This document shows, piece by piece, positions 52,010 to 63,005 of a stretch of DNA of 64,000 nt (positions are counted from its first letter, which is position 1; every line of letters begins with the position of its first letter). Source of the stretch: a virus. The notes under the pieces are model-generated. The model had not been told where the DNA came from, ran no database searches, and saw only the letters and a list, made by a program, of their open reading frames with translations. The position numbers and the translations under genes are program-made. The DNA is taken from IMG/VR virus record IMGVR_UViG_3300032294_002710, positions 70,853 through 134,852 of that record, one strand, 5' to 3'.

Positions 52010-52081
52010 TGCGGGGTAGAGCAGAGGTAGCTCGTCAGGCTCATAACCTGAAGGCCGGTGGTTCGATTCCACCCCCCGCTA
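52010..52081 (+). tRNA. tRNA-Met(CAT), initiator-like
   Basis: Cloverleaf; loop ctCATaa; 1:72 mismatch. Confidence 0.9.
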
Positions 52082-52166
52082 CATGAAAAAGAAAATTTGT
52101 ATTTTTATACAGAAAATAACTCTAAACAAGATTTGCTTAGGTTATTGTAAAAATTAATACTCACAC

Positions 52167-52241
52167 TGCGGGTGGGTGAAACGGAAAATCATTCCAGGCT
52201 CATAACCTGTGAGATACTTGGTTCGACTCCAGGACCCGCTA
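52167..52241 (+). tRNA. tRNA-Met(CAT), initiator-like
   Basis: Cloverleaf; loop ctCATaa; 1:72 mismatch. Confidence 0.8.
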
Positions 52242-52260
52242 CAAAAAAATTAAAAAAATA

Positions 52261-52291
52261 TTTGGAGATTTAAAAAATCTTCGTATATTTG
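52261..52291 (+). promoter_or_regulatory. Bacteroidota-type promoter of the Tyr/Glu tRNA operon
   Basis: TTTG-N19-TATATTTG. Confidence 0.8.
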
Positions 52292-52325
52292 TAAAACAAA
52301 ACAGAACAATTTAAAAATAGAAATC

Positions 52326-52406
52326 ATGGCAACTTTTGAAACATATTATTATGAAGCGTATGAGGAACACTCAGCGACTGGAGATACTATGTCTGTGAAA
52401 AGTTGA
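52326..52406 (+). CDS. Leader peptide 1 (MATFETYYYEAYEEHSATGDTMSVKS), Tyr/Glu attenuator
   Basis: 4 Tyr + 4 Glu in codons 5-14; lies between promoter and terminator. Confidence 0.85.
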   Translation: MATFETYYYEAYEEHSATGDTMSVKS

Positions 52407-52436
52407 TATGTAAGATATTAACTAAAAACACAAGTT

Positions 52437-52470
52437 AACCCAGTCAAAATCAAAATTGACTGGGTTTTTT
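52437..52470 (+). terminator. Attenuator terminator 1
   Basis: aacccagtcaa/ttgactgggtt + T run; 5' arm also complementary to leader gactgg (52376-81). Confidence 0.85.
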
Positions 52471-52484
52471 GTTTTAAAATATAT

Positions 52485-52578
52485 TGGGGTATAACGGTAG
52501 GGCATAGTAAGCGCCCGACAGAGTATATAAAACGCCGTATGGACTACCTGTGAGGAGGTTCGATTCCTTCTACTCCAA
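52485..52578 (+). tRNA. Non-canonical tRNA-Tyr(GTA)-like RNA, D-arm rewired
   Basis: Acceptor tggggta/tactcca, T-arm; degenerate anticodon arm with GTA; acggt pairs with gccgt. Confidence 0.5.
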
Positions 52579-52586
52579 CTAAATAT

Positions 52587-52658
52587 GGTCCCATCATCTA
52601 ATGGTTAGGATACAAGACTTTCAATCTTGAAATGCGGGTTCGATCCCCGTTGGGACTA
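52587..52658 (+). tRNA. tRNA-Glu(TTC)
   Basis: Cloverleaf; caaga-ctTTCaa-tcttg. Confidence 0.92.
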
Positions 52659-52667
52659 CAAAAATAT

Positions 52668-52751
52668 GGGAGAGTAACCGGTAACTGGTAGCCGCGCGGA
52701 CTGTAAATCCGCTCTCATTCGAGACTGGGGGTTCGAGTCCCTCCTCTCCCA
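52668..52751 (+). tRNA. tRNA-Tyr(GTA)
   Basis: gcgga-ctGTAaa-tccgc; long variable arm. Confidence 0.92.
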
Positions 52752-52756
52752 CAAAT

Positions 52757-52830
52757 GCTCTTGTCGTCTAACGGTAGGACTCCTGTTTTTCAAACAGATG
52801 TAGATGCGGGTTCGATTCCCGTCAAGAGTA
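52757..52830 (+). tRNA. tRNA-Glu(TTC)
   Basis: ctgt-ttTTCaa-acag. Confidence 0.85.
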
Positions 52831-52838
52831 CTAAATAT

Positions 52839-52932
52839 GGGATGTGTTGTCACAAGGGGTCTGTAAAACCCCTCTCCGTTAACAAAATTGTGACTGGTTT
52901 GGAGTTTAGAGGTTCGATTCCTTCATATCCCA
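52839..52932 (+). tRNA. Non-canonical tRNA-Tyr(GTA), D-arm rewired
   Basis: ggggt-ctGTAaa-acccc; no D hairpin; gtcacaa pairs with ttgtgac in the variable arm. Confidence 0.75.
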
Positions 52933-52940
52933 CTAAATAT

Positions 52941-53015
52941 GGTCCGTTCGTCTAGCCAGGTCTAGGACATCTCCCTTTCACGGAGAAGACACGGGTTCGA
53001 ATCCCGTACGGACTA
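52941..53015 (+). tRNA. tRNA-Glu(TTC)
   Basis: tctcc-ctTTCac-ggaga. Confidence 0.92.
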
Positions 53016-53021
53016 CAATAT

Positions 53022-53095
53022 GGCCCTGTCGTCTACGATGGCTAGGACATCACCCTCTCAAGGTGAAGAAGGCGGATCGACACCGCTCAGGGCTA
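53022..53095 (+). tRNA. tRNA-Glu(CTC)
   Basis: tcacc-ctCTCaa-ggtga; T-loop ATCGACA variant. Confidence 0.88.
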
Positions 53096-53098
53096 CAA

Positions 53099-53240
53099 AA
53101 ATATCAGGAGTACCTGTCGTAGAAAGTTAATTACTTTCCCTGATATTTATACAACTCAATGATGTAAGTGATTTTGGCAGTACCGACAGGAGGGTGAATT
53201 TAATTAGATTCTTTGGGGTTCGATTCCCACCATTGAGTTA
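53099..53240 (+). ncRNA. Two-module structured RNA (hairpin + tRNA-like unit)
   Basis: aaatatcagg/cctgatattt; aactcaatg/cattgagtt with GTTCGATT T-loop; cross-pairing cctgtcg/cgacagg. Confidence 0.5.
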
Positions 53241-53246
53241 TTTTAT

Positions 53247-53332
53247 TGGAAGGTGGCCGAGTGGTTAATGGCGGCAGACTGTAAATCTGCTCTCTTCGGA
53301 GTACGGGGGTTCGAATCCCTCCCTTCCAACCA
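53247..53332 (+). tRNA. tRNA-Tyr(GTA) with encoded CCA
   Basis: gcaga-ctGTAaa-tctgc; variable arm. Confidence 0.93.
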
Positions 53333-53371
53333 AGAAATTATAAAAAATTTCCTAAAATAAGAAATTTTTTA

Positions 53372-53379
53372 TATATTTG
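53372..53379 (+). promoter_or_regulatory. Bacteroidota-type -7 element
   Basis: TATATTTG. Confidence 0.5.
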
Positions 53380-53439
53380 TAAAGTAAATCAAATGTGGCT
53401 AAGTCCTATATGGCAAAAAGTTCATATTTTGATTTTTAT

Positions 53440-53526
53440 GGGAAAGTACCGAAGTGGTCAAACGGGCCTCAGTCGTAACTGGGGTGGCCTTAGGGTCTTC
53501 AGCGGTTCGAATCCGACTCTTTCCCA
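53440..53526 (+). tRNA. Class II tRNA with irregular anticodon loop (probably Tyr-derived)
   Basis: cctcag-tcgtaa-ctgggg gives a 6- or 8-nt loop; long variable arm; A73. Confidence 0.6.
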
Positions 53527-53593
53527 CTAAAATATTTATTAGGAGAGAAAAACTTTTTAATATATATTTATATAACTTAAAATAAAGATAAAA

Positions 53594-53671
53594 ATGAAAG
53601 CAGTTAATAACATATCAATCATAGGGAACGGCGCGATAGCGGGCGGTGGGCCCATTATGCTGATTGGATAA
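53594..53671 (+). CDS. Leader peptide 2 (MKAVNNISIIGNGAIAGGGPIMLIG), Ile/Gly/Ala attenuator
   Basis: 6 Ile (3 ATA), 6 Gly, 3 Ala in 25 codons; precedes terminator. Confidence 0.85.
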   Translation: MKAVNNISIIGNGAIAGGGPIMLIG

Positions 53672-53697
53672 GTTTTAACTCTTTCATTAAAGATACG

Positions 53698-53728
53698 AAC
53701 CCAGTCAGTAAATTGACTGGGTTTTTTT
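53698..53728 (+). terminator. Attenuator terminator 2
   Basis: aacccagtcag/ttgactgggtt + T run; 5' arm complementary to leader ctgattgg (53660-67). Confidence 0.85.
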
Positions 53729-53733
53729 ATTAT

Positions 53734-53814
53734 CGGCAGGTACCGTTGGATGCTTATATCATCTATACACGTAGCGGGAAGTTGAAAACGTGGGTTCGAA
53801 TCCCACCCTGCCGA
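53734..53814 (+). tRNA. Non-canonical tRNA-Ile(TAT), D-arm rewired
   Basis: cggcagg/cctgccg; ggatg-ctTATat-catct; ccgtt pairs with agcgg. Confidence 0.75.
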
Positions 53815-53816
53815 CA

Positions 53817-53890
53817 AACTCAAACTTGTGTTAACTCCTTGAGAGTGAAGTTGTGTACACAACAGGTTTATTCCCATAAGTCCCTGAGTT
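53817..53890 (+). ncRNA. Structured multibranch element in tRNA operon
   Basis: aactca/tgagtt, acttgtg/cataagt, actc/gagt, gttgt/acaac. Confidence 0.4.
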
Positions 53891-53893
53891 ATT

Positions 53894-53967
53894 GCAGAAG
53901 TGGTGTTTAATGGTTAGCATGTGAGACTTCCACTCTCAAGGTGCCGGTTCGAATCCGGTCTTCTGCT
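53894..53967 (+). tRNA. tRNA-Gly(TCC)
   Basis: tgaga-ctTCCac-tctca; U73. Confidence 0.92.
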
Positions 53968-53974
53968 CAGATAT

Positions 53975-54048
53975 GTCGATGACGCATAAATGGTGGTGCA
54001 CCTGATTGCCAATCAGGAATAGAGCCGGTTCGATCCCGGTTATCGACT
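53975..54048 (+). tRNA. tRNA-Gly(GCC)
   Basis: cctga-ttGCCaa-tcagg; U73. Confidence 0.88.
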
Positions 54049-54063
54049 CAGACTTTTCAATAT

Positions 54064-54101
54064 GCCGGAGGACTCCCTGTTAGTCCCAGGGTCCGGCTCC
54101 A
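54064..54101 (+). ncRNA. Acceptor-stem minihelix ending in UCCA
   Basis: gccgga/tccggc followed by t-cca. Confidence 0.35.
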
Positions 54102-54175
54102 GGGGCAGCATGTACCAAGGCTGGCGAAGATTTCTGGCAGAAATCTTGTGATGGATTCAATTTCCATCTGCTCCA
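54102..54175 (+). tRNA. tRNA-Ala(GGC), atypical D-arm, 7-bp anticodon stem
   Basis: G3:U70; aagattt-ctGGCag-aaatctt. Confidence 0.75.
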
Positions 54176-54184
54176 CAAAAATTA

Positions 54185-54259
54185 GGGGATGCATGTACTG
54201 AGGCTAAGCGAAAAGCACTTGCAATGCTTTTGATGTGATTTCGACTATCACCATCTCCA
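54185..54259 (+). tRNA. tRNA-Ala(TGC), atypical D-arm, 7-bp anticodon stem
   Basis: G3:U70; aaaagca-ctTGCaa-tgctttt. Confidence 0.78.
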
Positions 54260-54378
54260 CGAGTTCGATAGAGAAACTCTCCACTTTATGAATGATTTTG
54301 AAAATGTTTTACAAAGGAAGAAGAGTATTAGAAATCAAAAATATCTTGAAAGTCTTAAATAATTTCATATATTTGTAA

Positions 54379-54654
54379 AAATTAAATCTTATTGCCGCAG
54401 AAACAAATAGTAAATTACCTGGTCAATACTGGGAACAATTAAATAAACACGGATTACCTAACTATCTTTACTTAGGGGATGAATTAGTAATCGTTGACAG
54501 TATTGAGAAAAGAAAGAGAAAAAATGGCGCGAAAGTCGATCAGATATATTATATTCTGAGTGATGGTAGAGTAAAGCACGCATCTTTTTTCAAAAAGATT
54601 GATATAAAAGTAATAAAAAGAGATTATCTATTAAATAGTATCTTAAATGATTAA
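54379..54654 (+). CDS. Open frame without ATG/GTG/TTG start (non-canonical start or damaged gene)
   Basis: 91 sense codons after TATATTTG promoter; ends IKRDYLLNSILND overlapping tilS start. Confidence 0.5.
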   Translation, partial: KLNLIAAETNSKLPGQYWEQLNKHGLPNYLYLGDELVIVDSIEKRKRKNGAKVDQIYYILSDGRVKHASFFKKIDIKVIKRDYLLNSILND

Positions 54655-55234
54655 AGTCTTAGGTAAAATTCCTAAAGGTGAATTTGGACTTGCCTGTTCA
54701 GGTGGGGTTGATTCGATGGCTATTGCTAACTTTTTAGTTAATGGTGGTTACAATCCACATATTCTATACTTTAATCATAATACTGAACACGGAGATCTTG
54801 CCGAGAAGTTTGTAACTGAATATTGTCAGAGACATAATCTAAAACTCACAATTGGTAGAACTGATCTTAAACCTCAATCAAATAAAGAAAAGATTTGGAG
54901 TGATTTGAGATATGAGTTTTTCTCAAAATTTGATTTTCCTGTTATTACTTGCCATCATTTAGATGATTGTGTTGAGACTTACATTTTCTCTTGTCTTAGA
55001 GGATTTCAATCGGTTATTCCTTATTCTAAGGGTAATGTAATTCGCCCATTCCTATTGAATGAAAAATCACAATTTTATAAGTGGTGTGAGAATAAAGGAG
55101 TGCCTTTTATTGAGGATGAATCAAATTCATGTGTAGATTATTCAAGAAATCGTATTCGTCATAATATTGTTCCAGAGTCACTGTTGGTAAATCCTGGATT
55201 GAAAACTGTTGTTAAGAAGATGATTACTCTGTAA
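54647..55234 (+). CDS. tilS: tRNA(Ile)-lysidine synthetase, catalytic domain only
   Basis: PP-loop SGGVDSM, RY, HHLDDCVET, IRPFL, DESN..YSRNRIRH. Confidence 0.9.
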   Translation: MIKVLGKIPKGEFGLACSGGVDSMAIANFLVNGGYNPHILYFNHNTEHGDLAEKFVTEYCQRHNLKLTIGRTDLKPQSNKEKIWSDLRYEFFSKFDFPVITCHHLDDCVETYIFSCLRGFQSVIPYSKGNVIRPFLLNEKSQFYKWCENKGVPFIEDESNSCVDYSRNRIRHNIVPESLLVNPGLKTVVKKMITL

Positions 55235-56267
55235 AGTAGATATAGAACTGTTTACAATTTTCCCTATTTGGTACATAGTCTAATTTGGTTTTAAATCCTT
55301 CAGATTTAAAGTAAGATACAATTTCTTCTATTACTGAATTAACTTCATCTAAGATAATTTTGTGTCTAGAAAACCCAGAATCATTTTTTAATGCTCCTGA
55401 TATCCAAACATAAGGATCATTTTGGGTCCACCAAATATGATGCCTATAAATACTATTGCTATCTTTAAGATCTAGTAATATATCATTAACACTTTTTTCA
55501 ATTTCTCTTCTAATTGGGCTTTCAGGTCGGCACCAGTCATATTTATATTGTGGTTTACTGATACTCTCATTGATTTGATCATCCTTCTCATAGAATTCTA
55601 TAATAATGAAGTCACCTTTAAATCCATAATTCATTATATCTGGTTGGGAAATACTTTTTTGATGTTTTAATTGTGGTTCGATCCATTTTTTGAATTCCTC
55701 AATACTATTTAAAGTAATTTCCTCTTCTTTTGTTACGTTATCACTTGTTAAGAAAATTTTATACTCATAATCCTCCATATATCTCACAATATTTTCCAAA
55801 TATTGAATTAGTGTATCATTTATCCGACCACCTCTATCATTAATCCCTGGAGTGTTCCAATCAAATTCATCTAATGGTTCAAGAATAACTTTACAAGAAT
55901 ATTCATCTTCATTATACTTTTCAGTATTTGTATGAATAGTTATACTCCATTCACCTTCATCTTGTAAATCTAAAGATAAATCTTTTAGATGTTCAGAATC
56001 TTCATCTATATTGAATGATTCATTTAGATTTTCATACCATTCTTGTCCTTTGTAATAATGATTCCAAGGTTTAAAATCAGACTTTTTTAATTCTCTTCCA
56101 ACTCTTTTTTCTAAACAAGAAACACAGATATACTTATTTTGTTTAGATTTAGGTATGTATTTTGACCACCCTTCAAACCAATAGTCTTCTGGAAATTTAC
56201 CACAATCAGCACATTCTGCCCATTTAGGTTTTTTATTAAAATCTTCAAATATTTTTAAGTATTTCAT
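55224..56267 (-). CDS. Modular protein with capsid-targeting-like N-terminus and zinc finger
   Basis: MKYLKIFEDF; CADC..CVSC; internal LNES and INES. Confidence 0.7.
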   Translation of the reverse strand: MKYLKIFEDFNKKPKWAECADCGKFPEDYWFEGWSKYIPKSKQNKYICVSCLEKRVGRELKKSDFKPWNHYYKGQEWYENLNESFNIDEDSEHLKDLSLDLQDEGEWSITIHTNTEKYNEDEYSCKVILEPLDEFDWNTPGINDRGGRINDTLIQYLENIVRYMEDYEYKIFLTSDNVTKEEEITLNSIEEFKKWIEPQLKHQKSISQPDIMNYGFKGDFIIIEFYEKDDQINESISKPQYKYDWCRPESPIRREIEKSVNDILLDLKDSNSIYRHHIWWTQNDPYVWISGALKNDSGFSRHKIILDEVNSVIEEIVSYFKSEGFKTKLDYVPNRENCKQFYIYFTE

Positions 56268-56705
56268 TTATATACTGTATTTTATACCAATTTGCCTTAC
56301 GGTTGTATCTATCCATTTAGGATTTAGCAAATCATCAATACTCATATCAAGGCCTGTATTGAGATTGCTATGTATCCAAATTTTGGATATTTTACCACCT
56401 ATTGACTCTATGTAACTTTTAGAAGATAATAATGTGTTTATTATTTCTGATGGTTTAAATAATGATGGTTTGTAGTTTACCCAATCTTCAATTTCTTCAC
56501 CCGTTTCATCATCAATTTTATATGTAATTAAAGATTTTTTTGAAATACTTACATCGATATAGTTGAAGTGTTTATGATGTATATTCTGTGGAACTACTCT
56601 TACATCAAATTCTTCACTTATTTCAGAGTAAATATCTTTAATATATTCAATCATCTCTTCAATTTCCGAAGGTTCGTATGACTCGAATTTTTTTAAGTAT
56701 TTCAT
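56268..56705 (-). CDS. Hypothetical protein, paralog of 57415
   Basis: MKYLKKFESY; YIKDIYSEISEEF, SSKSYIESIGGKISKIW. Confidence 0.75.
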   Translation of the reverse strand: MKYLKKFESYEPSEIEEMIEYIKDIYSEISEEFDVRVVPQNIHHKHFNYIDVSISKKSLITYKIDDETGEEIEDWVNYKPSLFKPSEIINTLLSSKSYIESIGGKISKIWIHSNLNTGLDMSIDDLLNPKWIDTTVRQIGIKYSI

Positions 56706-57415
56706 AAAGGATCTTGAATTACTTCACCATTTTTATCTAATAGTTTAAACTCTTTTGGTTCAAAATAATTATTAGTATATGTTACTTCTCCCTTATTATT
56801 CTTCAGTCTAATATCACCTCCAAATCCAGTATATTTATCAACCAGACCCTTGTGTTCTTGTCCATCTATTGTGAATTCTGCGAATACTTCACCATTTTTA
56901 ATTCTATCTTTAAATAACTTTTTTCTGTATATTACTTCTGGATCTTTTAGATATTTCAACTTTTGCTCTTGATCCTTTATCTTTTTATCCTGTATAGTTG
57001 TTAATTCGGATAATAGTATTTCATATTTACCAGTCTTTTCATCAAATTGACCAATTGAATAGTGTGTATTATTTTTAACTGGTTCAGTAGTTTGACAATG
57101 AACTTTAGGTCCTCTATTTGTTACAAAGTTCCAATGGTCTGATACACGATATGATTTATCAGGCTTAGATTCCCAAGATATATCATCTGACGAATAAAAC
57201 GATTTAGAGTAAGGTGATTTATATATAATCGGCCATTCCTTCATCATTTCTATAATTGAATCTGGAATTCCAAATTGAGATAGTTCTTCTGGTTGATATA
57301 TTTTACCTGTTGGACTTGGATTGTTTTTATGCCAAAGTTCATTTCTAAGTTGTCTTTTACTTTTAACAACCTCTTCACCGCTTTCAAAATCTTCAAATAG
57401 TTTTAAGAATCTCAT
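56702..57415 (-). CDS. Hypothetical protein (RVSDHW motif)
   Basis: MRFLKLFEDF; KSPYSKSFY, YRVSDHWNF. Confidence 0.7.
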   Translation of the reverse strand: MRFLKLFEDFESGEEVVKSKRQLRNELWHKNNPSPTGKIYQPEELSQFGIPDSIIEMMKEWPIIYKSPYSKSFYSSDDISWESKPDKSYRVSDHWNFVTNRGPKVHCQTTEPVKNNTHYSIGQFDEKTGKYEILLSELTTIQDKKIKDQEQKLKYLKDPEVIYRKKLFKDRIKNGEVFAEFTIDGQEHKGLVDKYTGFGGDIRLKNNKGEVTYTNNYFEPKEFKLLDKNGEVIQDPL

Positions 57416-57873
57416 TATAGTATATATTCTATATTAATTTGTACTAAATCTCCGAGATCTGAATGACGATTTAAAAACTCATCAAAACTTAGAGTTATAC
57501 CATCATTTGGATTTGATATATGTAACCATACTTTGGATATTTCACCATCAACTGATTCGATATAACTTTTTGATGTTAGTATTAATTCCATCACTTCGTC
57601 TATTTTAAAAGTAGCTTGTTTAAATTTTGACCAATCATCTGTACCATCCGACTTTTTAAACTCTGGCGATTCCTTGAATATGTTTATGCCTATTGAAGAG
57701 GATTTCCAATTGTGTGTATTTGTGTTATAAGATTTTATATTAAAATCATCTGATATTTCGGAGAAAATATCTTTTAAGTAATCAGACACTTCCTTAAATT
57801 CTTTATCATTAGTTGATTGATGATGGCTTTTTTTGAAGTCATCAAACATTTCAAATAGTTTTAAATATCTCAT
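57415..57873 (-). CDS. Hypothetical protein, paralog of 56268
   Basis: MRYLKLFEMF; YLKDIFSEISDDF, TSKSYIESVDGEISKVW. Confidence 0.75.
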   Translation of the reverse strand: MRYLKLFEMFDDFKKSHHQSTNDKEFKEVSDYLKDIFSEISDDFNIKSYNTNTHNWKSSSIGINIFKESPEFKKSDGTDDWSKFKQATFKIDEVMELILTSKSYIESVDGEISKVWLHISNPNDGITLSFDEFLNRHSDLGDLVQINIEYIL

Positions 57874-57909
57874 TTTTTATATATTAAAAAATCAATTATA
57901 TTTGTAGTT

Positions 57910-58281
57910 ATGATATATGAGTTCTTTACAGATAAAACAACTGGACCACTTACTAATTTTCTAAGTAGTTTGGCTAACATGCCCACTCTGAAGATGCTAG
58001 ATTACACTCTATTAGAGTATCATACACTTGATGTTAAAGAGTATGGTGTTAAGAGGTTTACTTTTGGATATGAAGGTAATACATTTAAGTTTTACTTATC
58101 AAAAAGTGATACTATTGGTTTATCATTTGAGGATAATACCATGCCACATACTGGTGCATTTCATCATTTTAGACTCTATTATACTGGAAACTCAATTAAT
58201 AATTACAAGGTTAATGACGAGATTAGGCAATATTTGTTATCTTTTGTAAGAGATTATAAATTGAGTCAAATAGTAAAATAA
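57910..58281 (+). CDS. Hypothetical protein
   Basis: TATATTTG at 57897; C-terminal RDYKLSQIV. Confidence 0.65.
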   Translation: MIYEFFTDKTTGPLTNFLSSLANMPTLKMLDYTLLEYHTLDVKEYGVKRFTFGYEGNTFKFYLSKSDTIGLSFEDNTMPHTGAFHHFRLYYTGNSINNYKVNDEIRQYLLSFVRDYKLSQIVK

Positions 58282-58282
58282 A

Positions 58283-58314
58283 TTTGGAAGATTAAACTTT
58301 AATACATATATTTG
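58283..58314 (+). promoter_or_regulatory. Bacteroidota-type sigma-A promoter
   Basis: TTTG-N20-TATATTTG. Confidence 0.7.
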
Positions 58315-58400
58315 TAAAATAATAATAACATATCATTTTTCTTTGATCAAAAGGTGGAGAAAAAATTTTCAAAGAAATTTGAAAAAAAAAGAAAAAAGAT

Positions 58401-59225
58401 ATGAAAAATGAAAAAGATAGCCTCGGCAACCGCATGAAGGCTTACGAAAACCAAACCTGTGGAATCAAAATGCTTCCACTTATCCCTGTAATCGCTCGTC
58501 TTGATGGTAAGGGATTCTCTAAATTTACTAAAGGTCTTAAACGACCTTATGATGAAAGGCTTTCAAATCTTATGATTGAAACCACAAAGTATCTTGTAAA
58601 AGAAACTAATGCTAATTGTGGTTACACTCAAAGTGACGAAATCACTCTTATGTGGTACTCTGATAGTCATGAGTCAAAAATCTACTTTGATGGTAGACTT
58701 TTCAAAATGATTTCAGATCTTGCTTCAATGGGTTCTGTATTCTTCAATTCTAAACTTGCTGAATACATTCCTGAGAAGAAAGATAAAATGCCAAGATTCG
58801 ATTGTCGAGTTTGGAATGTTCCGAATGTAGATGAAGCCGTGAATGTTTTTTACTGGAGAGAAAAAGATGCAACCAAGAACTCTATTACAATGGCTGCTTC
58901 TGAATACTACTCACACAATTTCCTTATGGGTAAGAATGGTTCTGAAAAACAAGAATTACTTTTCCAAAAAGGTGTAAACTGGAATGATTATCCATCTTTC
59001 TTTAAAAGAGGTAGTTACATTCAAAGAAAGCGAGTTGTAAGTAAGTTTAGCAGTGAAGAACTTGAGAGACTTCCACTTAAACACAAGGCAAGACTTAATC
59101 CAGATCTTGAAATCGAAAGATGGGTTATTGATCGTGTAGAACTTCCACCACTCTCAACTATTGAGAATAAAGTTGGTGTGATTGTATATGGTGAAGATGT
59201 GAAAATTAAAAGTCCAGTTTTTTAA
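58401..59225 (+). CDS. Thg1-like tRNA(His) guanylyltransferase / 3'-5' polymerase
   Basis: RMKAYE, RLDGKGFSKFT, YTQSDEI, FDCR, WREKDATKNS. Confidence 0.92.
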   Translation: MKNEKDSLGNRMKAYENQTCGIKMLPLIPVIARLDGKGFSKFTKGLKRPYDERLSNLMIETTKYLVKETNANCGYTQSDEITLMWYSDSHESKIYFDGRLFKMISDLASMGSVFFNSKLAEYIPEKKDKMPRFDCRVWNVPNVDEAVNVFYWREKDATKNSITMAASEYYSHNFLMGKNGSEKQELLFQKGVNWNDYPSFFKRGSYIQRKRVVSKFSSEELERLPLKHKARLNPDLEIERWVIDRVELPPLSTIENKVGVIVYGEDVKIKSPVF

Positions 59226-59237
59226 CTGGACTTTTTT
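59208..59237 (+). terminator. Intrinsic terminator
   Basis: aaaagtccagtt/aactggactttt + T run. Confidence 0.7.
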
Positions 59238-59266
59238 ATATATATTTGTAAAACTAATTTTCAAAA

Positions 59267-59590
59267 ATGAAACATATTTCCGGAATTAATGAGTCTTTTA
59301 AAGACAGAAGAAGAAAAGAAATTGAGGCAGAAATTGCTAGAAAACAAAAAGAACTTGATGAATTGCAAAATTCTGAAAATGATGCAGTAATTGAGTTAAG
59401 TGATTATACAACAGAAGATAAAGTTAAGTTCTTTGATAGGATGTATAAGATGGCCGCAGAACACTTACAAAGTGCTGAGGATGGTCGTGTAGATGATGAT
59501 GCTGAACATTGGTTTTTTGAGGAAGGATTTGGAATTTTGAACCTAAAAGACAAAAGAAAACTTTGGAATTTCTATAATGAACTTATTTAA
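59267..59590 (+). CDS. Hypothetical protein
   Basis: MKHISGINESF. Confidence 0.7.
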   Translation: MKHISGINESFKDRRRKEIEAEIARKQKELDELQNSENDAVIELSDYTTEDKVKFFDRMYKMAAEHLQSAEDGRVDDDAEHWFFEEGFGILNLKDKRKLWNFYNELI

Positions 59591-59595
59591 CTACT

Positions 59596-59970
59596 ATGAT
59601 AATAAAAAAATTTAATGAATCTGTTGAAAGTCCTAAAGTAAGACTTGCAGAATATTGTGAACTTGAAGGTGATTGTAATAATTACGATCTATATGAGCTT
59701 TTTAAACAACACACTGGAATTGAATTAGAGTTTGAGGCTGGTCAAGAATATGGAACAGGTTGTTATGGGCTAATTAGATTTATGGATAATAATCCCAAAT
59801 CTACTTATAGATTTTATCCTACTCTAGAAGAATTAGAAGATAAGATTCAAAAATATAAAGATAAAAAACTTGGTAAATATGAATATATCACTGCCAATGA
59901 TATAGTAAACTACTTTAGAAGAAAGGGAATTCTACCTGAAAAAGATTTTCTATTTAACGTTGACTATTAA
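59596..59970 (+). CDS. Hypothetical protein
   Basis: MIIKKFNES. Confidence 0.7.
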   Translation: MIIKKFNESVESPKVRLAEYCELEGDCNNYDLYELFKQHTGIELEFEAGQEYGTGCYGLIRFMDNNPKSTYRFYPTLEELEDKIQKYKDKKLGKYEYITANDIVNYFRRKGILPEKDFLFNVDY

Positions 59971-60029
59971 TGTGTAATTTCAAACTTTATTAGAAACTTT
60001 ATATACAAATAAAAACTAAATTAAATAAA

Positions 60030-60452
60030 ATGATTAAAGAAGGTAGTAAAGTTAAAGCCCATTATACTGGTCGTTTAACGAATAATGATGTTTTTGACAC
60101 ATCGTTGAGAGATGGTCGTGAGCCATTAGAGTTTGTAGTTGGTGAAGGATCACTTATTCCAGGATTTGAAAATGGTATAATGGGTTTGTCTAAAGGAGAC
60201 AAGAAAACTGTAAATATACCACCATCTGAAGCTTATGGGGAATACAGACAAGATTTGTGCTTAACAGTTCCAAAGACTAATGTGCCACCTGGTATTCAAG
60301 TTGGACAAACACTTCAAGCTAATACAGATGGTCAAATGGTTCCATTTATTGTTAGAGAAGTGATGGAGAATGAAGTTATTGTTGATGCGAATCATCCATT
60401 AGCTGGTCAAGAATTGATTTTTGATATTGAAATTGTAGATATTGAAAATTAA
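60030..60452 (+). CDS. FKBP-type peptidyl-prolyl isomerase (SlyD-like)
   Basis: HYTG, FDTS, LIPGFE, AYG, DANHPLAG. Confidence 0.93.
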   Translation: MIKEGSKVKAHYTGRLTNNDVFDTSLRDGREPLEFVVGEGSLIPGFENGIMGLSKGDKKTVNIPPSEAYGEYRQDLCLTVPKTNVPPGIQVGQTLQANTDGQMVPFIVREVMENEVIVDANHPLAGQELIFDIEIVDIEN

Positions 60453-60483
60453 TTTGGAAGTTAAAAAAACTTCCTTATATTTG
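60453..60483 (+). promoter_or_regulatory. Bacteroidota-type sigma-A promoter
   Basis: TTTG-N19-TATATTTG. Confidence 0.75.
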
Positions 60484-60489
60484 TAAAAT

Positions 60490-60567
60490 AAAACAGAGAA
60501 CTCCGGTATGGTCTCAATCATTACTCAGAACCGGGCTTCGGAGAGTTACAAGTTGAGACTCTGTTTT
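60490..60567 (+). ncRNA. Candidate pseudoknotted small RNA
   Basis: aaaacagag/ctctgtttt, aactc/gagtt, ccggt/accgg, crossing gtctcaa/ttgagac. Confidence 0.5.
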
Positions 60568-60587
60568 TAAAAAAAAATTAAAAAATA

Positions 60588-60618
60588 TTTGAAAGATTAA
60601 AACTTTTTCATATATTTG
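60588..60618 (+). promoter_or_regulatory. Bacteroidota-type promoter of the third tRNA operon
   Basis: TTTG-N19-TATATTTG. Confidence 0.8.
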
Positions 60619-60663
60619 TATAAAATAACACAAAGAGACAAAAACTTTTTAATATATAAAAAA

Positions 60664-60777
60664 ATGAGAACAATGAATCTAAATATCACAAATTTGAACC
60701 TCACAATGGTGGTGAATAATACATTATGTATTAGAACCGCTGGTTCGGGTTGTGCAAAATTTGGATTTATCTCGTGA
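60664..60777 (+). CDS. Leader peptide 3 (MRTMNLNITNLNLTMVVNNTLCIRTAGSGCAKFGFIS), multi-amino-acid attenuator
   Basis: First 25 codons use only M,R,T,N,L,I,V,C, the set of downstream tRNAs. Confidence 0.88.
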   Translation: MRTMNLNITNLNLTMVVNNTLCIRTAGSGCAKFGFIS

Positions 60778-60804
60778 TGAATTGATATAATCCAAAAAAG
60801 ATAC

Positions 60805-60840
60805 AAACCCGAACCGTAAAAAGTTCGGGTTTTTTGTTTT
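60805..60840 (+). terminator. Attenuator terminator 3
   Basis: aaacccgaac/gttcgggttt + T run; 5' arm has a perfect 10-nt complement ggttcgggtt (60742-51) in the leader. Confidence 0.88.
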
Positions 60841-60844
60841 ATAC

Positions 60845-60919
60845 GCTCCCGTAGCCCAATTGGCAGAGGCAACAGACTTAAACCCTGTACAGGTATCGGT
60901 TCGAATCCGATGGGGAGTA
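60845..60919 (+). tRNA. tRNA with anticodon TAA (Leu), short variable region
   Basis: acaga-ctTAAac-cctgt. Confidence 0.75.
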
Positions 60920-60967
60920 CAAAAAGAGAAGGTGACATATCGCACTCTGAAAATGCGAAATGGTAAT

Positions 60968-61051
60968 GCCCAGGTGGTGGAATTGGTAGACACCCCGGTC
61001 TAAGAAGCCGGTGTCCGTAAGGACGTGAGAGTTCGAGTCTCTCCTTGGGTA
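60968..61051 (+). tRNA. tRNA-Leu(AAG)
   Basis: ccggt-ctAAGaa-gccgg; variable arm. Confidence 0.88.
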
Positions 61052-61119
61052 CGAAAGTTTTTAACCCCTTCCAGATATTTCCGCTGTTGTCTGGAAGGGG
61101 TGGAGACAAGGATTAAAAT

Positions 61120-61202
61120 ACCTTTGTGGCGAAATTGGTAGCACGCGCTGGTCTTAGAAACCAGTTCCGAAAGGAGTGTCGGTTCGAATCCGACTAAAGG
61201 TA
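61120..61202 (+). tRNA. tRNA-Leu(TAG)
   Basis: ctggt-ctTAGaa-accag. Confidence 0.92.
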
Positions 61203-61208
61203 CAAAAT

Positions 61209-61281
61209 GGTCTCTTCGTCCAACTGGACAGGACATCGGTCTTCTAAACCGAGGATATGGGTTCGAATCCCGTAGGGACTA
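61209..61281 (+). tRNA. tRNA-Arg(TCT)
   Basis: tcggt-ctTCTaa-accga. Confidence 0.9.
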
Positions 61282-61287
61282 CTAAAA

Positions 61288-61372
61288 GGATGGGTTGCTT
61301 TAGAGGCCGAAAAGTCTGGACTGTTAATCCAGTGTCGCAAGACCACCGTGGGTTCGAATCCCACCCTGTCCT
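61288..61372 (+). tRNA. tRNA-Asn(GTT) with long variable arm
   Basis: ctgga-ctGTTaa-tccag; gtc-gcaa-gac arm. Confidence 0.8.
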
Positions 61373-61385
61373 CAAAATTATATAC

Positions 61386-61472
61386 TGGCAGTTGGCCGAG
61401 AGGACGATGGCAGTGGACTGTTAATCCACCGTAGCGAAAGCTCCAACATAGGTTCGAATCCTATACTGTCAG
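61386..61472 (+). tRNA. tRNA-Asn(GTT) with long variable arm
   Basis: gtgga-ctGTTaa-tccac; agc-gaaa-gct arm; G73. Confidence 0.85.
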
Positions 61473-61483
61473 CTAACAAAATA

Positions 61484-61565
61484 CGGCAAGTACCAGCCCA
61501 TCCTGATAAGATGGAGAACTGTAGTTGGTATGTTGAAAACGTGGGTTCGAGTCCCACCTTGCCGA
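61484..61565 (+). tRNA. Non-canonical tRNA-Ile(GAT), D-arm rewired
   Basis: cggcaag/cttgccg; ccatc-ctGATaa-gatgg; taccagc pairs with gttggta. Confidence 0.78.
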
Positions 61566-61575
61566 CAAAGGATTA

Positions 61576-61649
61576 GCCTCCTTAGCTTTAATTGGTAGAG
61601 CACCTGACTTGTAATCAGGGGGTTGTCGGTTCGAGTCCGGCAGGAGGCT
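61576..61649 (+). tRNA. tRNA-Thr(TGT)
   Basis: cctga-ctTGTaa-tcagg. Confidence 0.93.
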
Positions 61650-61656
61650 CATATAT

Positions 61657-61739
61657 AGGAATAGTAATTGAAAGAGATACTTCGATCAAACTTCTAATTT
61701 GGCAACGAAACCAAAAACTCTTTTAAGATTTTCTTTCCT
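61657..61739 (+). ncRNA. Y-RNA-like RNA copy C
   Basis: agga/tcct, tagtaat, ttgaaagag/ctcttttaa, ATACTTCG motif. Confidence 0.55.
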
Positions 61740-61743
61740 TTAT

Positions 61744-61826
61744 GCACAGGTGGTAGAGTGGCGAATGCAACGGCCTGCAAAGCCGTAGTCGAAAGACCAT
61801 CGGGGGTTCGAGTCCCTCCCTGTGCT
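61744..61826 (+). tRNA. tRNA-Cys(GCA) with long variable arm
   Basis: acggc-ctGCAaa-gccgt; gtc-gaaa-gac arm; U73. Confidence 0.87.
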
Positions 61827-61832
61827 CAACTT

Positions 61833-61903
61833 GCCCCGGTGGCGTAATGGGAGCGTACTTGTTTTACATGCAAGTGGCAGTGGTTCGAATCCACTTCGGG
61901 GTA
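61833..61903 (+). tRNA. tRNA-Val(TAC)
   Basis: cttgt-ttTACat-gcaag. Confidence 0.87.
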
Positions 61904-61910
61904 CTAAAAT

Positions 61911-61984
61911 TGGAATATAGCTCAGTTGGTTAGAGCAATTCGCTGATACCGAATAGGTCGCTGGTTCGAGTCCAGCTATTCCAA
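61911..61984 (+). tRNA. tRNA-Ile(GAT)
   Basis: attcg-ctGATac-cgaat. Confidence 0.92.
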
Positions 61985-61989
61985 CAAAA

Positions 61990-62103
61990 ATGTATGGTGA
62001 TTAAAAGTGTTACTTCGTGAAATGGTTAACACAATTGTTTTAAACACAATTATTTACTGGTTCGAATCCAGTAGTATAAACCACTTTTAAACCTTTCCTA
62101 CAT
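61990..62103 (+). ncRNA. Y-RNA-like RNA copy D with tRNA-like domain (YrlA-type architecture)
   Basis: atgta/tacat, ttaaaagtg/cacttttaa, TTACTTCG, then D-arm, anticodon-like arm and T-arm actgg-TTCGAAT-ccagt. Confidence 0.7.
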
Positions 62104-62108
62104 TTAAT

Positions 62109-62193
62109 GCCGATGTGGCTCAGTGGCGACAGCACCGGTTTTGTAAACCGGAGACGATTTAGTCCAGCGGGGGTTCGAGTCCCTCCATCGGCT
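62109..62193 (+). tRNA. tRNA-Thr(TGT) with long variable arm
   Basis: ccggt-ttTGTaa-accgg. Confidence 0.85.
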
Positions 62194-62195
62194 CA

Positions 62196-62303
62196 ATGAA
62201 TGTGTGAATGCACGATAAACTAAAACGGCACCAGCGGAGACTGGAGTGGATATTGGAAACACATAACCACCACAAATGTAGGAGAATACCCTACCACATT
62301 CAT
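62196..62303 (+). ncRNA. tRNA-like structured RNA of unknown type
   Basis: atgaatgtg/cacattcat acceptor-like stem; gtagg-agaatac-cctac T-like arm; ccag/ctgg and gtgg/ccac hairpins. Confidence 0.5.
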
Positions 62304-62308
62304 CAAAT

Positions 62309-62382
62309 AGTCTTGTAGCTCAGTTGGTTAGAGCGTTTGGTCGACATCCAAAAGGTCATCGGTTCGAATCCGGTCAGGACTA
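62309..62382 (+). tRNA. tRNA-Val(GAC)
   Basis: tttgg-tcGACat-ccaaa (C33). Confidence 0.88.
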
Positions 62383-62387
62383 CAAAA

Positions 62388-62459
62388 GCCAATGTCGTAT
62401 AACGGCAATTACACACCGTTGGTATCGGTGAGACACCAGTTCAACTCTGGTCTTTGGCT
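62388..62459 (+). tRNA. tRNA-Thr(GGT)
   Basis: caccg-ttGGTat-cggtg. Confidence 0.85.
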
Positions 62460-62464
62460 CAAAT

Positions 62465-62554
62465 GCCTCAGTGGCGAAACTGGTTGAAACGCCTTAGTCT
62501 TAGGAACTAAGACCCAAGTGGTAAACGTTGTCGGTTCGAATCCGACCTGAGGTA
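62465..62554 (+). tRNA. tRNA-Leu(TAG)
   Basis: ttagt-ctTAGga-actaa; variable arm. Confidence 0.9.
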
Positions 62555-62571
62555 CAAAAAATATAATAAAA

Positions 62572-62775
62572 ATGGCAAAGTGGTATAACATAGTTAAAAG
62601 ATATAAAGGTGAATCTAAGAGTCACAAGAGATTTTATTCTTCCAGAGATATGATGGAGTTAAAAAGAATGATATCAGTTGCAAACTCGGAGGCTAAAAGA
62701 GGTTTGAGAAAACCTTATAAAGGAATCTCACCTTGTGGATGTGGAATGGAAGGATGTTTCATTTTGTATTCATAA
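62572..62775 (+). CDS. Small basic protein inside tRNA operon
   Basis: 67 aa between tRNAs; CGCGMEGC. Confidence 0.55.
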   Translation: MAKWYNIVKRYKGESKSHKRFYSSRDMMELKRMISVANSEAKRGLRKPYKGISPCGCGMEGCFILYS

Positions 62776-62780
62776 AAAAT

Positions 62781-62865
62781 GCCGAAATGGCGGAACTGGT
62801 AGACGCGCCGGCCTCAAAAGCTGGTGTCCTTAAAGGACGTGTGGGTTCGAGTCCCACTTTCGGTA
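62781..62865 (+). tRNA. tRNA-Leu(CAA)
   Basis: ccggc-ctCAAaa-gctgg; variable arm. Confidence 0.92.
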
Positions 62866-62870
62866 CAAAT

Positions 62871-62942
62871 GGCGATATGGTGTAACGGCAAGCTCACATG
62901 GCTCATATCCTTGAGGACCAGGTTCGATTCCTGGTATCGCTA
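62871..62942 (+). tRNA. tRNA(CAT), elongator Met or Ile2
   Basis: catgg-ctCATat-ccttg. Confidence 0.8.
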
Positions 62943-63005
62943 CCTTGAATTTTTTTAAAAATAAACCAAGATGGAGAAATTGTGATATAAAAATGAAATT
63001 TAAAA

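What the first reader, a model, noticed from the sequence alone, without database searches (positions are those of the whole stretch)
52485..61565. Four tRNAs with no D hairpin whose D-strand pairs with the variable region
Tyr-like 52485, Tyr 52839, Ile(TAT) 53734 and Ile(GAT) 61484 have acceptor, anticodon and T arms but only 7-11 nt between acceptor and anticodon stems. That strand is complementary to a segment 3' of the anticodon arm: acggt/gccgt, gtcacaa/ttgtgac, ccgtt/agcgg, taccagc/gttggta. The two Ile genes are clear homologues, and their pairing strands differ while staying complementary. Each sits in the operon whose leader uses its codon, suggesting they decode. Inference: a rewired, possibly pseudoknotted L-shape that may evade host tRNA-targeting enzymes and standard tRNA finders.
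Basis: partly seen in the sequence, partly recalled or inferred. Interest (0 to 1): 0.82.

Follow-up and report, generated by a model that had tools for sequence, protein, structure and literature searches.

The report
Rewired non-cloverleaf phage tRNA genes
Four genes in a huge freshwater phage's tRNA clusters look like isoleucine and tyrosine tRNAs that have no D hairpin and rebuild that part from strands lying before and after the anticodon arm, a conserved design that gene finders miss.

Summary
All four loci exist, and ARAGORN and Rfam's tRNA model miss them. They are not broken tRNAs.

**Ile genes (53734-53814 UAU; 61484-61565 GAU).** They belong to a family of 168 distinct Ile/Arg sequences from IMG/VR phage contigs. 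The strand after the acceptor stem pairs with two short segments 3' of the anticodon arm. These segments flank a D-loop-like UARY(Y)GG. Covariation supports these helices. A Levitt-like 15:48 pair also covaries.

**Tyr genes.** 52485-52578 has the same layout but an aberrant anticodon arm and no homologue found, so it may be degenerate.

**Reading.** These are most likely working tRNAs. No expression or charging data exist, and defence evasion is untested. I found no paper describing the design. This scan has flagged the same families on other DNA.

The parts
53734..53814 (+). Rewired tRNA-Ile(UAU) gene. Acceptor 53734-40 / 53807-13. U8 at 53741. Anticodon arm 53748-64, anticodon TAT at 53755-57. 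T arm 53790-53806. Discriminator A at 53814.
   Evidence: Segmentation printed. Scores 101.7 bits with R1, although it is one of the sequences R1 was trained on. Not called by ARAGORN or Rfam.
53742..53746 (+). 5' strand of the rebuilt D helix in the UAU gene. AC (53742-43) is Z. CGU (53744-46) is X.
   Evidence: Columns 9-13 of alignment A3. Covariation score 0.543 against 0.145 shuffled, 0 of 500 shuffles as high.
53769..53771 (+). Y strand (ACG), pairing with X at 53744-46.
   Evidence: A3 columns 40-42. 89.7% of cells are paired and all 3 pairs show changes on both sides.
53772..53777 (+). D-loop-like motif UAGCGG (A14-, R15- and G18G19-like), placed 3' of the anticodon arm.
   Evidence: Motif table. 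Its third base G53774 covaries with C53789.
53781..53789 (+). Z' strand GU (53781-82) pairing with AC at 53742-43. Then the UGAAAA linker. C53789 is the 48-like partner of G53774.
   Evidence: A3 columns 54-55. Offset scan. The 15:48-like pair is tested.
61484..61565 (+). Rewired tRNA-Ile(GAU) gene. Acceptor 61484-90 / 61558-64. U8 at 61491. Z = AC at 61492-93. X = CAG at 61494-96. Anticodon arm 61498-61514, anticodon GAT at 61505-07. Y = CUG at 61519-21. UAGUUGG at 61522-28. Z' = GU at 61532-33. 48-like C at 61540. T arm 61541-57. Discriminator A at 61565.
   Evidence: Segmentation. Scores 92.2 bits with R1, as a training member. Compared with 53734, X:Y pairs 2 and 3 change on both sides: G-C to A-U and U-A to G-C.
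52839..52932 (+). Pseudoknotted Tyr-type tRNA(GUA) gene. Acceptor 52839-45 / 52925-31. X = GUCACAA at 52849-55. Anticodon arm 52856-72, anticodon GTA at 52863-65. S2 5' strand CUCC at 52874-77. Y = UUGUGAC at 52888-94. UGG at 52895-97. S2 3' strand GGAG at 52901-04. T arm 52908-24. Discriminator A at 52932.
   Evidence: Relative L143 has GCUAC/GUAGC and CUGC/GCAG at the same places. Family count.
52485..52578 (+). Tyr-type layout with an aberrant anticodon arm. Acceptor 52485-91 / 52571-77. UA at 52492-93. X = ACGGU at 52494-98. Arm 52500-16 (GGGCA UAGUAAG CGCCC). S2 = ACAG at 52518-21 with CUGU at 52548-51. Y = GCCGU at 52534-38. AUGG at 52539-42. T arm 52554-70.
   Evidence: Fold z-score -0.12. 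None of 35 pattern-matched stretches resembles it.

Best explanation
The four loci are genes for non-cloverleaf tRNAs of two conserved phage designs.

**Ile/Arg design (53734 UAU, 61484 GAU).** After the acceptor stem comes U8. A 5-nt strand follows, and it pairs with two separate segments downstream of the anticodon arm: X:Y of 3 bp next to the anticodon stem, and Z:Z' of 2 bp (3 bp in the 8-nt subclass). Between Y and Z' lies a D-loop-like UARY(Y)GG. An A-rich linker ends in a base that pairs with the R of that motif, as R15:Y48 does in ordinary tRNA. So half of the D stem and the whole D loop have moved behind the anticodon arm. The anticodon arm sits inside the rebuilt helix, which makes the fold nested.

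**Tyr design (52839, and 52485 with a defective-looking anticodon arm).** X pairs with a strand that lies inside the loop of a variable-arm-like helix, S2. This fold is a pseudoknot.

**Shown here.** The helices and the 15:48-like pair covary. U8, the GG, the T loop, the class-specific base after GG and the discriminator are kept. The genes sit in register inside tRNA arrays.

**Inferred.** The RNAs fold to an L shape with GG docked on the T loop. They are cut out and given CCA like their neighbours, charged by IleRS or TyrRS, and used to read AUA, AUY and UAY in a 30% GC phage. Why the core is rewired is unknown. Escape from tRNA-directed nucleases is one possibility.
For: **Family size.** One pattern scan gave 25 stretches. 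After further scans, 168 distinct Ile/Arg-type sequences were parsed: Ile UAU 41, Ile GAU 29, CAU 1, Arg UCU 47, UCG 25, ACG 18, CCU 6, GCG 1.

**X:Y and Z:Z' on MAFFT alignments that were not fitted to any structure.**
- A3 (81 of the 83 sequences with a 7-nt strand): 84.7% paired against 61.8% shuffled. Covariation score 0.543 against 0.145 +/- 0.017 (0 of 500 shuffles as high). Slid registers reach at most 0.096.
- A4 (85 sequences with an 8-nt strand): 92.1% against 72.0%. Score 0.579 against 0.196 +/- 0.018 (0 of 500). Slid registers reach at most 0.123.
- Example pair, A4 columns 13:39: GC 50, AU 17, CG 16, GU 1, other 1.
- RNAalifold on A4 predicts X:Y on its own.

**15:48-like pair.**
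- A-U 110, G-C 57, G-G 1 of 168.
- Among the 41 sequences that match none of my search patterns: 31 A-U, 9 G-C, 1 G-G.
- Database test: the concordant pattern gave 117 matches holding 73 distinct true members. The discordant A...C pattern gave 44 matches holding 0 members.

**Class-specific marks.**
- The base after GG is A in 97 of 97 Arg members, and U in 59, G in 9 and A in 3 of the 71 Ile/CAU members.
- The discriminator is A in 71 of 71 Ile/CAU members.

**Tyr type.**
- 22 rows. X:Y plus S2 are 92.5% paired against 83.3% shuffled. Score 0.273 against 0.114 (0 of 500).
- The discriminator is A in 21 of 21.

**Context.**
- Gaps to neighbouring tRNAs are 7-10 nt, with the same C(U/A)AA..AU spacers as between canonical genes.
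- The leader ORFs use the matching codons.
- ATA makes up 349 of 1002 Ile codons in 33 long ORFs.
- The record's only UAU anticodon is the rewired gene: ARAGORN tRNAs and none is Ile-UAU.
Against: - **No direct functional data.** No call shows transcription, processing, CCA addition, aminoacylation or decoding.
- **Nearest-neighbour energies do not favour the model.** Over 168 sequences the X:Y+Z model averages -15.9 kcal/mol, three stems alone average -18.1, and the MFE averages -23.1. The MFE holds all three X:Y pairs in only 38 of 168.
- **The helices are short and imperfect.** X:Y pair 3 is unpaired in 24 of 81 sequences (A3) and 18 of 85 (A4). Z is 76.9% paired in the 7-nt class.
- **Sampling was by sequence patterns.** C-G at X:Y pair 1 and A-U at Z pair 1 are partly imposed by those patterns. 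Related sequences inflate the shuffle controls.
- **The 3D path is unresolved.** Only one base separates GG from Z', which is tight for a canonical D-loop/T-loop contact.
- **52485 is doubtful.** It has A at position 33, an A.C closing pair, a fold z-score of -0.12 and no homologue found.
Confidence: 0.65

Rival explanations
1. They are tRNA look-alikes that are made but not used in translation. They could be decoys or sponges for tRNA-directed nucleases or modification enzymes, or regulators of the tRNA operons, and they keep tRNA marks only for recognition.
For: - The window already holds canonical Tyr-GUA genes (52668, 53247) and a canonical Ile-GAU gene (61911) beside the rewired ones, so three of the four are redundant as decoders.
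- 52485 has an anticodon loop unfit for normal decoding.
- The earlier scan note e1-4040102 names YrlA-type tRNA look-alikes as the nearest thing in print (not checked by me).
Against: - Anticodon loops are kept as proper 7-nt loops with U33 and R37. My detector required this, but the anticodons found fall only in Ile, Arg and CAU classes.
- Synthetase-relevant marks track the anticodon class: A after GG in 97 of 97 Arg members and discriminator A in 71 of 71 Ile/CAU members.
- The only UAU anticodon of the record is the rewired gene, while ATA is 35% of Ile codons.
Confidence: 0.15
2. The first reader's register is the real fold of the two Ile genes. The whole 5-7 nt strand pairs with the AGCGG / GUUGGUA segment, so the GG is buried in a helix that extends the anticodon arm.
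For: ViennaRNA MFE folds of both genes use this kind of helix: -27.0 and -28.5 kcal/mol, z-scores -1.98 and -2.97.
Against: - There is no covariation. On A3 the score is 0.075 against 0.076 shuffled (277 of 500 shuffles as high), and 3 of its 5 pairs are mostly unpaired (34, 70 and 57 of 81 sequences).
- On A4, 65.8% of cells pair against 65.5% shuffled.
- When column 10 changes (A, G or U), the compensating change is in Z', not in the GG.
Confidence: 0.06
3. They are decaying tRNA pseudogenes that lost the D arm by deletion. The complementarity is chance.
For: 52485 alone fits this. It has an aberrant anticodon arm, no homologue among 35 pattern hits, and a fold no better than shuffles.
Against: - There are 168 distinct Ile/Arg-type and 21 distinct Tyr-type sequences, with compensatory changes in every stem. 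In A3, acceptor 98.4%, anticodon 99.3% and T stem 97.5% of cells are paired.
- The extra helices and a tertiary-type pair also covary.
Confidence: 0.03

Closest known systems
Canonical bacterial and phage elongator tRNA-Ile(GAU/UAU) and class II tRNA-Tyr(GUA) (Rfam RF00005 cloverleaf)
   Same: - 7-bp acceptor stem, 5-bp anticodon stem with a 7-nt loop, and 5-bp T stem with a TTCRANY loop.
- U8, an A14/R15-like UAR, GG, a covarying 15:48-like pair, and discriminator A.
- No encoded CCA, like the 28 canonical genes around them.
   Different: - There is no D hairpin. One D-stem strand and the D loop lie 3' of the anticodon arm.
- There is an extra Z helix (Ile/Arg type) or a pseudoknot with a variable-arm helix (Tyr type).
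- RF00005 and ARAGORN do not detect them.
Mitochondrial D-armless tRNAs (mammalian mt-tRNA-Ser(AGY), nematode mt-tRNAs), as described in the passages of review PMC7609411 that I read
   Same: No D hairpin. Three helices meet at the core.
   Different: - According to the review passages, those tRNAs lack or degrade the G18G19 / T-loop motifs and are short.
- The genes here are 81-94 nt and keep the GG and a full T loop.
- They rebuild a D-like helix from a distant strand.
Allo-tRNAs with 8/4 or 9/3 acceptor/T branches (PMC5389517; search listing and abstract only)
   Same: Non-standard tRNA architectures found in bacteria and their phages by metagenome mining.
   Different: Those change stem lengths within a cloverleaf. 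Here the stems are 7/5 and the order of the segments differs.
Permuted or split tRNA genes of algae and archaea (recalled from general knowledge; no call)
   Same: The order of tRNA segments in the gene differs from the textbook order.
   Different: In those cases processing restores a normal cloverleaf. Here nothing suggests rearrangement of the RNA, and the mature chain itself would be rewired (inference).

Membership tests
Canonical tRNA (Rfam RF00005 / ARAGORN cloverleaf) | D stem-loop between the acceptor and anticodon stems | tested here: not met
   Only 7, 7, 10 and 8 nt lie between the two stems. No RF00005 hit even at E<=10. ARAGORN calls none of the four.
Canonical tRNA (Rfam RF00005 / ARAGORN cloverleaf) | Acceptor stem of 7 bp, anticodon stem of 5 bp with a 7-nt loop (U33, R37), T stem of 5 bp with a T-loop motif | tested here: met
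   Met by 53734, 61484 and 52839. 52485 fails the anticodon-arm part, with an A.C closing pair and A33.
Canonical tRNA (Rfam RF00005 / ARAGORN cloverleaf) | Aminoacylation and use on the ribosome | not testable with these tools
   No call bears on it.
   53734 has CGU/ACG and 61484 has CAG/CUG, both 3 of 3 paired. The family covaries.
   AC/GU in both genes. Family pairing is 76.9% in the 7-nt class and 91.6% in the 8-nt class.
   UAGCGG with C53789, and UAGUUGG with C61540. Family: 167 of 168 concordant. The discordant pattern gave 0 members in 44 matches.
Pseudoknotted Tyr-type phage tRNAs (unpublished family; alignment A5) | X:Y helix of 5-7 bp flush with the anticodon stem, with Y inside the loop of an S2 helix that starts right after the anticodon stem and ends before the T stem. 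GG follows Y. Discriminator A. | tested here: met
   - 52839: GUCACAA/UUGUGAC, CUCC/GGAG, UGG.
- 52485: ACGGU/GCCGU, ACAG/CUGU, AUGG.
- Family count.
Pseudoknotted Tyr-type phage tRNAs (unpublished family; alignment A5) | Anticodon loop CUGUAAA (GUA with U33) | tested here: inconclusive
   Met by 52839. Not met by 52485, whose loop is UAGUAAG. My Tyr detector required this loop, so the family count cannot show how strict the feature is.
Mitochondrial-type D-armless tRNA | A short D-replacement loop with no rebuilt helix, and loss of the GG / T-loop motifs | tested here: not met
   The GG and the TTCGA T loop are kept, and the long 3' region pairs back. The feature list is taken from passages of PMC7609411.

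The most novel reading that the evidence does not exclude
Bacterial ribosomes, synthetases, RNase P and the CCA enzyme routinely use tRNAs that are not cloverleaves. Phages keep this rewired core, next to ordinary copies with the same anticodon, because it makes their Ile, Arg and Tyr tRNAs invisible to host (or phage-made) nucleases and other defence enzymes that read the D arm, while synthetase and ribosome contacts are preserved.
Probability: 0.22. Interest if true: 0.92.

Novelty: new variant of a known kind. Interest (0 to 1): 0.8.

Why it matters
The cloverleaf is treated as universal for tRNAs used in bacteria. A large phage-borne class would change that picture if it really works. In this class half of the D stem and the D loop sit behind the anticodon arm, yet U8, GG, the 15:48-like pair and synthetase marks are kept.

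- **Structure.** The L-shaped core could then be threaded in more than one way.
- **Annotation.** It exposes a blind spot: ARAGORN and Rfam miss these genes, and GenBank records of cultured Pseudomonas phages leave one unannotated.
- **Phage biology.** It bears on how phages supply rare-codon tRNAs and possibly dodge tRNA-directed defences.
- **Engineering.** It offers natural scaffolds for orthogonal tRNAs.
- **Testability.** A member lies in the cultured phage PA11 of P. aeruginosa, so the question can be tested directly.

Tried and rejected
- **RNA evidence.** One search for public runs found 20 rows, of which one is on record as RNA and three more are guessed to be RNA. I laid four of them (X16-X19), all held as contigs. 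Some contigs overlap 52679-52920, 53549-53766 and 53763-53969. But the libraries may hold DNA, contigs show no ends, and identity was 90-99%. I draw nothing from this about transcription or processing.
- **BLAST of the short genes against GenBank phages.** 53734-53814 hit only LR756502.1, and 52839-52932 hit nothing. BLAST is too insensitive for this purpose, so it is not evidence of absence.
- **Homologues of 52485.** The pattern built on its odd loop gave 35 stretches, none with its layout. A 5-record BLAST found none.
- **Pseudoknot reading for the Ile genes.** Rejected, because X:Y and Z:Z' are nested.
- **Mini-hairpin in GUUGAAAAC.** Considered and dropped. Other linker variants do not keep it.
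- **Thermodynamic support for X:Y+Z.** Sought and not found.
- **Not done.** No 3D modelling of RNA is offered by the tools. No tree-aware covariation test was run. Paper supplements were not consulted.
- **Literature.** Five full-text searches (listings and abstracts only) and passages of review PMC7609411 gave no description of this layout. That is the basis for 'not found in print'.

Full report
**Setting.** The window is bases 70853-134852 of a 134,852-base IMG/VR virus record that is estimated 24% complete. It is 30.3% GC. Its nearest GenBank relatives are uncultured phages of 634,780 and 642,428 bases. The best DNA holders among public runs are freshwater and riverine metagenomes. ARAGORN finds 28 tRNAs, all in three arrays at 52010-54260 and 60845-62944. 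None of the four loci in the finding is called by ARAGORN or by Rfam at gathering score. At E<=10 the only overlaps are a sub-threshold tRNA-Sec match for 52838-52932 and a tmRNA match for 53715-53817.

**The loci.** Each has a 7-bp acceptor stem, a T arm with a TTCGA(A/G/T)T loop and discriminator A. Only 7-10 nt lie between the acceptor and anticodon stems. Three have a regular anticodon arm: UAU at 53755-57, GAU at 61505-07 and GUA at 52863-65. In 52485 the arm is GGGCA/UAGUAAG/CGCCC, with an A.C closing pair and A where U33 should be. Its fold is no better than shuffled sequence (z-score -0.12).

**The Ile genes belong to a large family.**
- A 26-nt pattern from their shared 3' part found 25 stretches in IMG/VR, giving 17 distinct sequences including the window's two.
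- I built a covariance model, R1, with only the three ordinary stems. It matched all 22 of 22 related records searched.
- R1 brought in intermediate-scoring hits with other anticodons. ARAGORN found nothing in 15 of the 31 hits I listed.
- After two more pattern scans, a script that asked only for acceptor, anticodon and T stems plus a UAR..GG motif parsed 168 distinct sequences: Ile UAU 41, Ile GAU 29, CAU 1, Arg UCU 47, UCG 25, ACG 18, CCU 6, GCG 1.

**Which pairing is real.** The alignments were made by MAFFT and were not fitted to any structure: A3 (81 of the 83 sequences with a 7-nt strand; I left out two with long inserts) and A4 (85 sequences with an 8-nt strand).

Alternative model: X:Y is 3 bp, formed by the 3 nt before the last base of the strand and the 3 nt just 5' of UAR. 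Z:Z' is 2-3 bp, formed by the bases after U8 and the bases just before the GAAAA linker.

| Test | Alignment | Cells paired (shuffled) | Covariation score (shuffled) | Shuffles as high | Best slid register |
|---|---|---|---|---|---|
| X:Y + Z:Z' | A3 | 84.7% (61.8%) | 0.543 (0.145) | 0 of 500 | 0.096 |
| X:Y + Z:Z' | A4 | 92.1% (72.0%) | 0.579 (0.196) | 0 of 500 | 0.123 |

- RNAalifold on A4 predicts X:Y by itself.
- The two window genes differ by compensatory changes at X:Y pairs 2 and 3: G-C to A-U and U-A to G-C.
- These helices enclose the anticodon arm, so the Ile fold is nested and not a pseudoknot.

**Tertiary signature.** Between Y and Z' lies UARY(Y)GG, which reads like D-loop positions 14-19.
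- Its R covaries with the base just 5' of the T stem: A-U 110, G-C 57, G-G 1 of 168.
- Two of my scan patterns imposed this link, so I checked it two ways.
- Among the 41 sequences that match no search pattern, the counts are 31 A-U, 9 G-C and 1 G-G.
- The discordant pattern (A with C) gave 44 matches in IMG/VR and 0 true members.
- This is the behaviour of the R15:Y48 Levitt pair. That name comes from general tRNA knowledge; the geometry was not tested.
- The base after GG is A in 97 of 97 Arg members, and U (59), G (9) or A (3) in the 71 Ile/CAU members. The discriminator is A in 71 of 71 Ile/CAU members.
- A20 as an ArgRS mark and A73 for Ile are recalled from the literature, not taken from a call.

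**Tyr type.**
- A pattern scan gave 48 stretches and 21 distinct parsed sequences, including 52839.
- The layout is: acceptor, UA (GUU in the 52839 subgroup), X of 5-7 nt flush with the anticodon stem, the anticodon arm, one base, the S2 5' strand, about 9-12 nt, Y, A(N)NGG or UGG, a few nt, the S2 3' strand, 2-3 nt, and the T arm.
- On A5 (22 rows with both window genes) X:Y plus S2 are 92.5% paired against 83.3% shuffled. The covariation score is 0.273 against 0.114 (0 of 500 shuffles as high) and slid registers reach at most 0.084.
- MAFFT misaligns Y in the four rows of the 52839 subgroup. There the evidence is by eye: GUCAC/GUGAC against GCUAC/GUAGC, and CUCC/GGAG against CUGC/GCAG.
- Y lies inside the S2 loop, so this fold is a pseudoknot.
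- 52485 aligns with the mainstream Tyr type: UA-ACGGU, AUGG, and S2 ACAG/CUGU. But it is a singleton with a defective-looking anticodon arm, and I rate decay at about 40% for this locus alone.

**Context.**
- The rewired genes lie 7-10 nt from their neighbours, with the same spacers as canonical genes. Like them, they encode no CCA.
- Each array follows a short leader ORF and a hairpin with a U run. The leaders use the codons of the tRNAs behind them.
- ATA is 349 of 1002 Ile codons in 33 long ORFs.
- The only UAU anticodon in the record is 53734.
- Canonical Tyr-GUA (two genes) and Ile-GAU (one gene) coexist with rewired copies.
- Between the arrays lie a 195-aa protein matching only the TilS N-terminal domain (112.3 bits, cut-off 93.6) and a Thg1-like protein.

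**Distribution.**
- A strict 23-base pattern found 6 stretches in one genome each of 185,579 species.
- All 6 are true members on MAG contigs that hold 3-14 ARAGORN tRNAs within 8 kb or less.
- The same pattern occurs in 34 of my viral loci.
- BLAST with an Arg member found unannotated matches in cultured Pseudomonas phages.
- R1 scores them 45.8 bits (PA11) and 52.1 bits (vB_PaeM_Ty). Read by eye, the PA11 sequence shows AGC/GCU and CCC/GGG.

**Reading.** The best-supported account is that these are working tRNAs with a rewired core. The helices, the tertiary-type pair, the class-specific marks and the genomic context are shown. The L shape, processing, charging and decoding are inferred.

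**Against this reading.**
- Nearest-neighbour energies do not favour the short helices.
- The sampling was pattern-driven.
- The path of the D-loop-like bulge, with one base between GG and Z', is geometrically tight.
- Nothing shows the RNA.
- Defence evasion is a hypothesis. The only hint for it is that rewired and ordinary copies of the same anticodon coexist.

**Prior art.** Five full-text searches (listings and abstracts) and passages of the 2020 review of non-canonical tRNAs (PMC7609411, where 'phage' occurs 0 times) gave no description of this layout. This scan has reported both families on other genomes. I reached the model before reading those notes, and they agree with it. One note says that part of a related Arg claim fell on later checking and that nobody has seen the RNA charged. 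I keep the functional claim at moderate confidence for that reason.

Noticed in passing
52326-52406, 53594-53671, 60664-60777 (leader ORFs); hairpin plus U-run at about 52439-52470, 53700-53728, 60808-60835: Three short leader ORFs sit in front of the three tRNA arrays. Each is rich in the codons read by the tRNAs that follow and is followed by a terminator-like hairpin, which looks like leader-peptide attenuation of tRNA operons. An earlier scan note (e1-5785701) reports the same on a relative.
   Followed up: partly
54647-55234 (+): A 195-aa protein matches only the N-terminal catalytic domain of lysidine synthetase TilS (TIGR02432, 112.3 bits, cut-off 93.6). It lacks the tRNA-binding C-terminal parts. 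It lies next to the Ile(UAU) array, in a record with three CAU-anticodon tRNAs.
   Followed up: partly
58401-59225 (+): A Thg1-like protein (PF04446, E = 9e-30) lies between the tRNA arrays. It could be a 3'-5' tRNA repair or tRNA-His guanylyltransferase enzyme.
   Followed up: no
61288-61373, 61386-61473, 61744-61827, 62109-62194: ARAGORN calls Asn, Asn, Cys and Thr tRNAs of 84-88 nt here. These lengths imply long variable arms in tRNA classes that normally have short ones.
   Followed up: no
53440-53526 and 53165-53242: Two more tRNA-like elements that no finder calls. The first has a GGGAAAG/CUUUCCC acceptor, a 6-bp stem with a 6-nt loop or a 5-bp stem with an 8-nt loop, and a weak tRNA-Sec match (21.4 bits). 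The second has only an acceptor-like and a T-like arm.
   Followed up: no
L179:612-696, L178:4377-4461, L171:1332-1416, L185:707-791, L153:943-1027: Relatives carry 85-nt Ile(GAU) tRNAs with a normal D arm plus a long variable arm. Their acceptor and T arms resemble those of the rewired Ile genes, so they may be evolutionary intermediates.
   Followed up: no
L431:264-343 (Pseudomonas phage PA11, NC_007808.1, about 47672-47751); L432:281-360 (phage vB_PaeM_Ty): A rewired Arg(UCU) member lies unannotated in cultured P. aeruginosa phages, between an HNH endonuclease gene and a hypothetical ORF.
   Followed up: partly
L036:11715-11803, L329:4102-4190: Two Ile(UAU) members of 89 nt carry an extra 8-9 nt insert in the linker before the T arm. 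I left them out of alignment A3.
   Followed up: no
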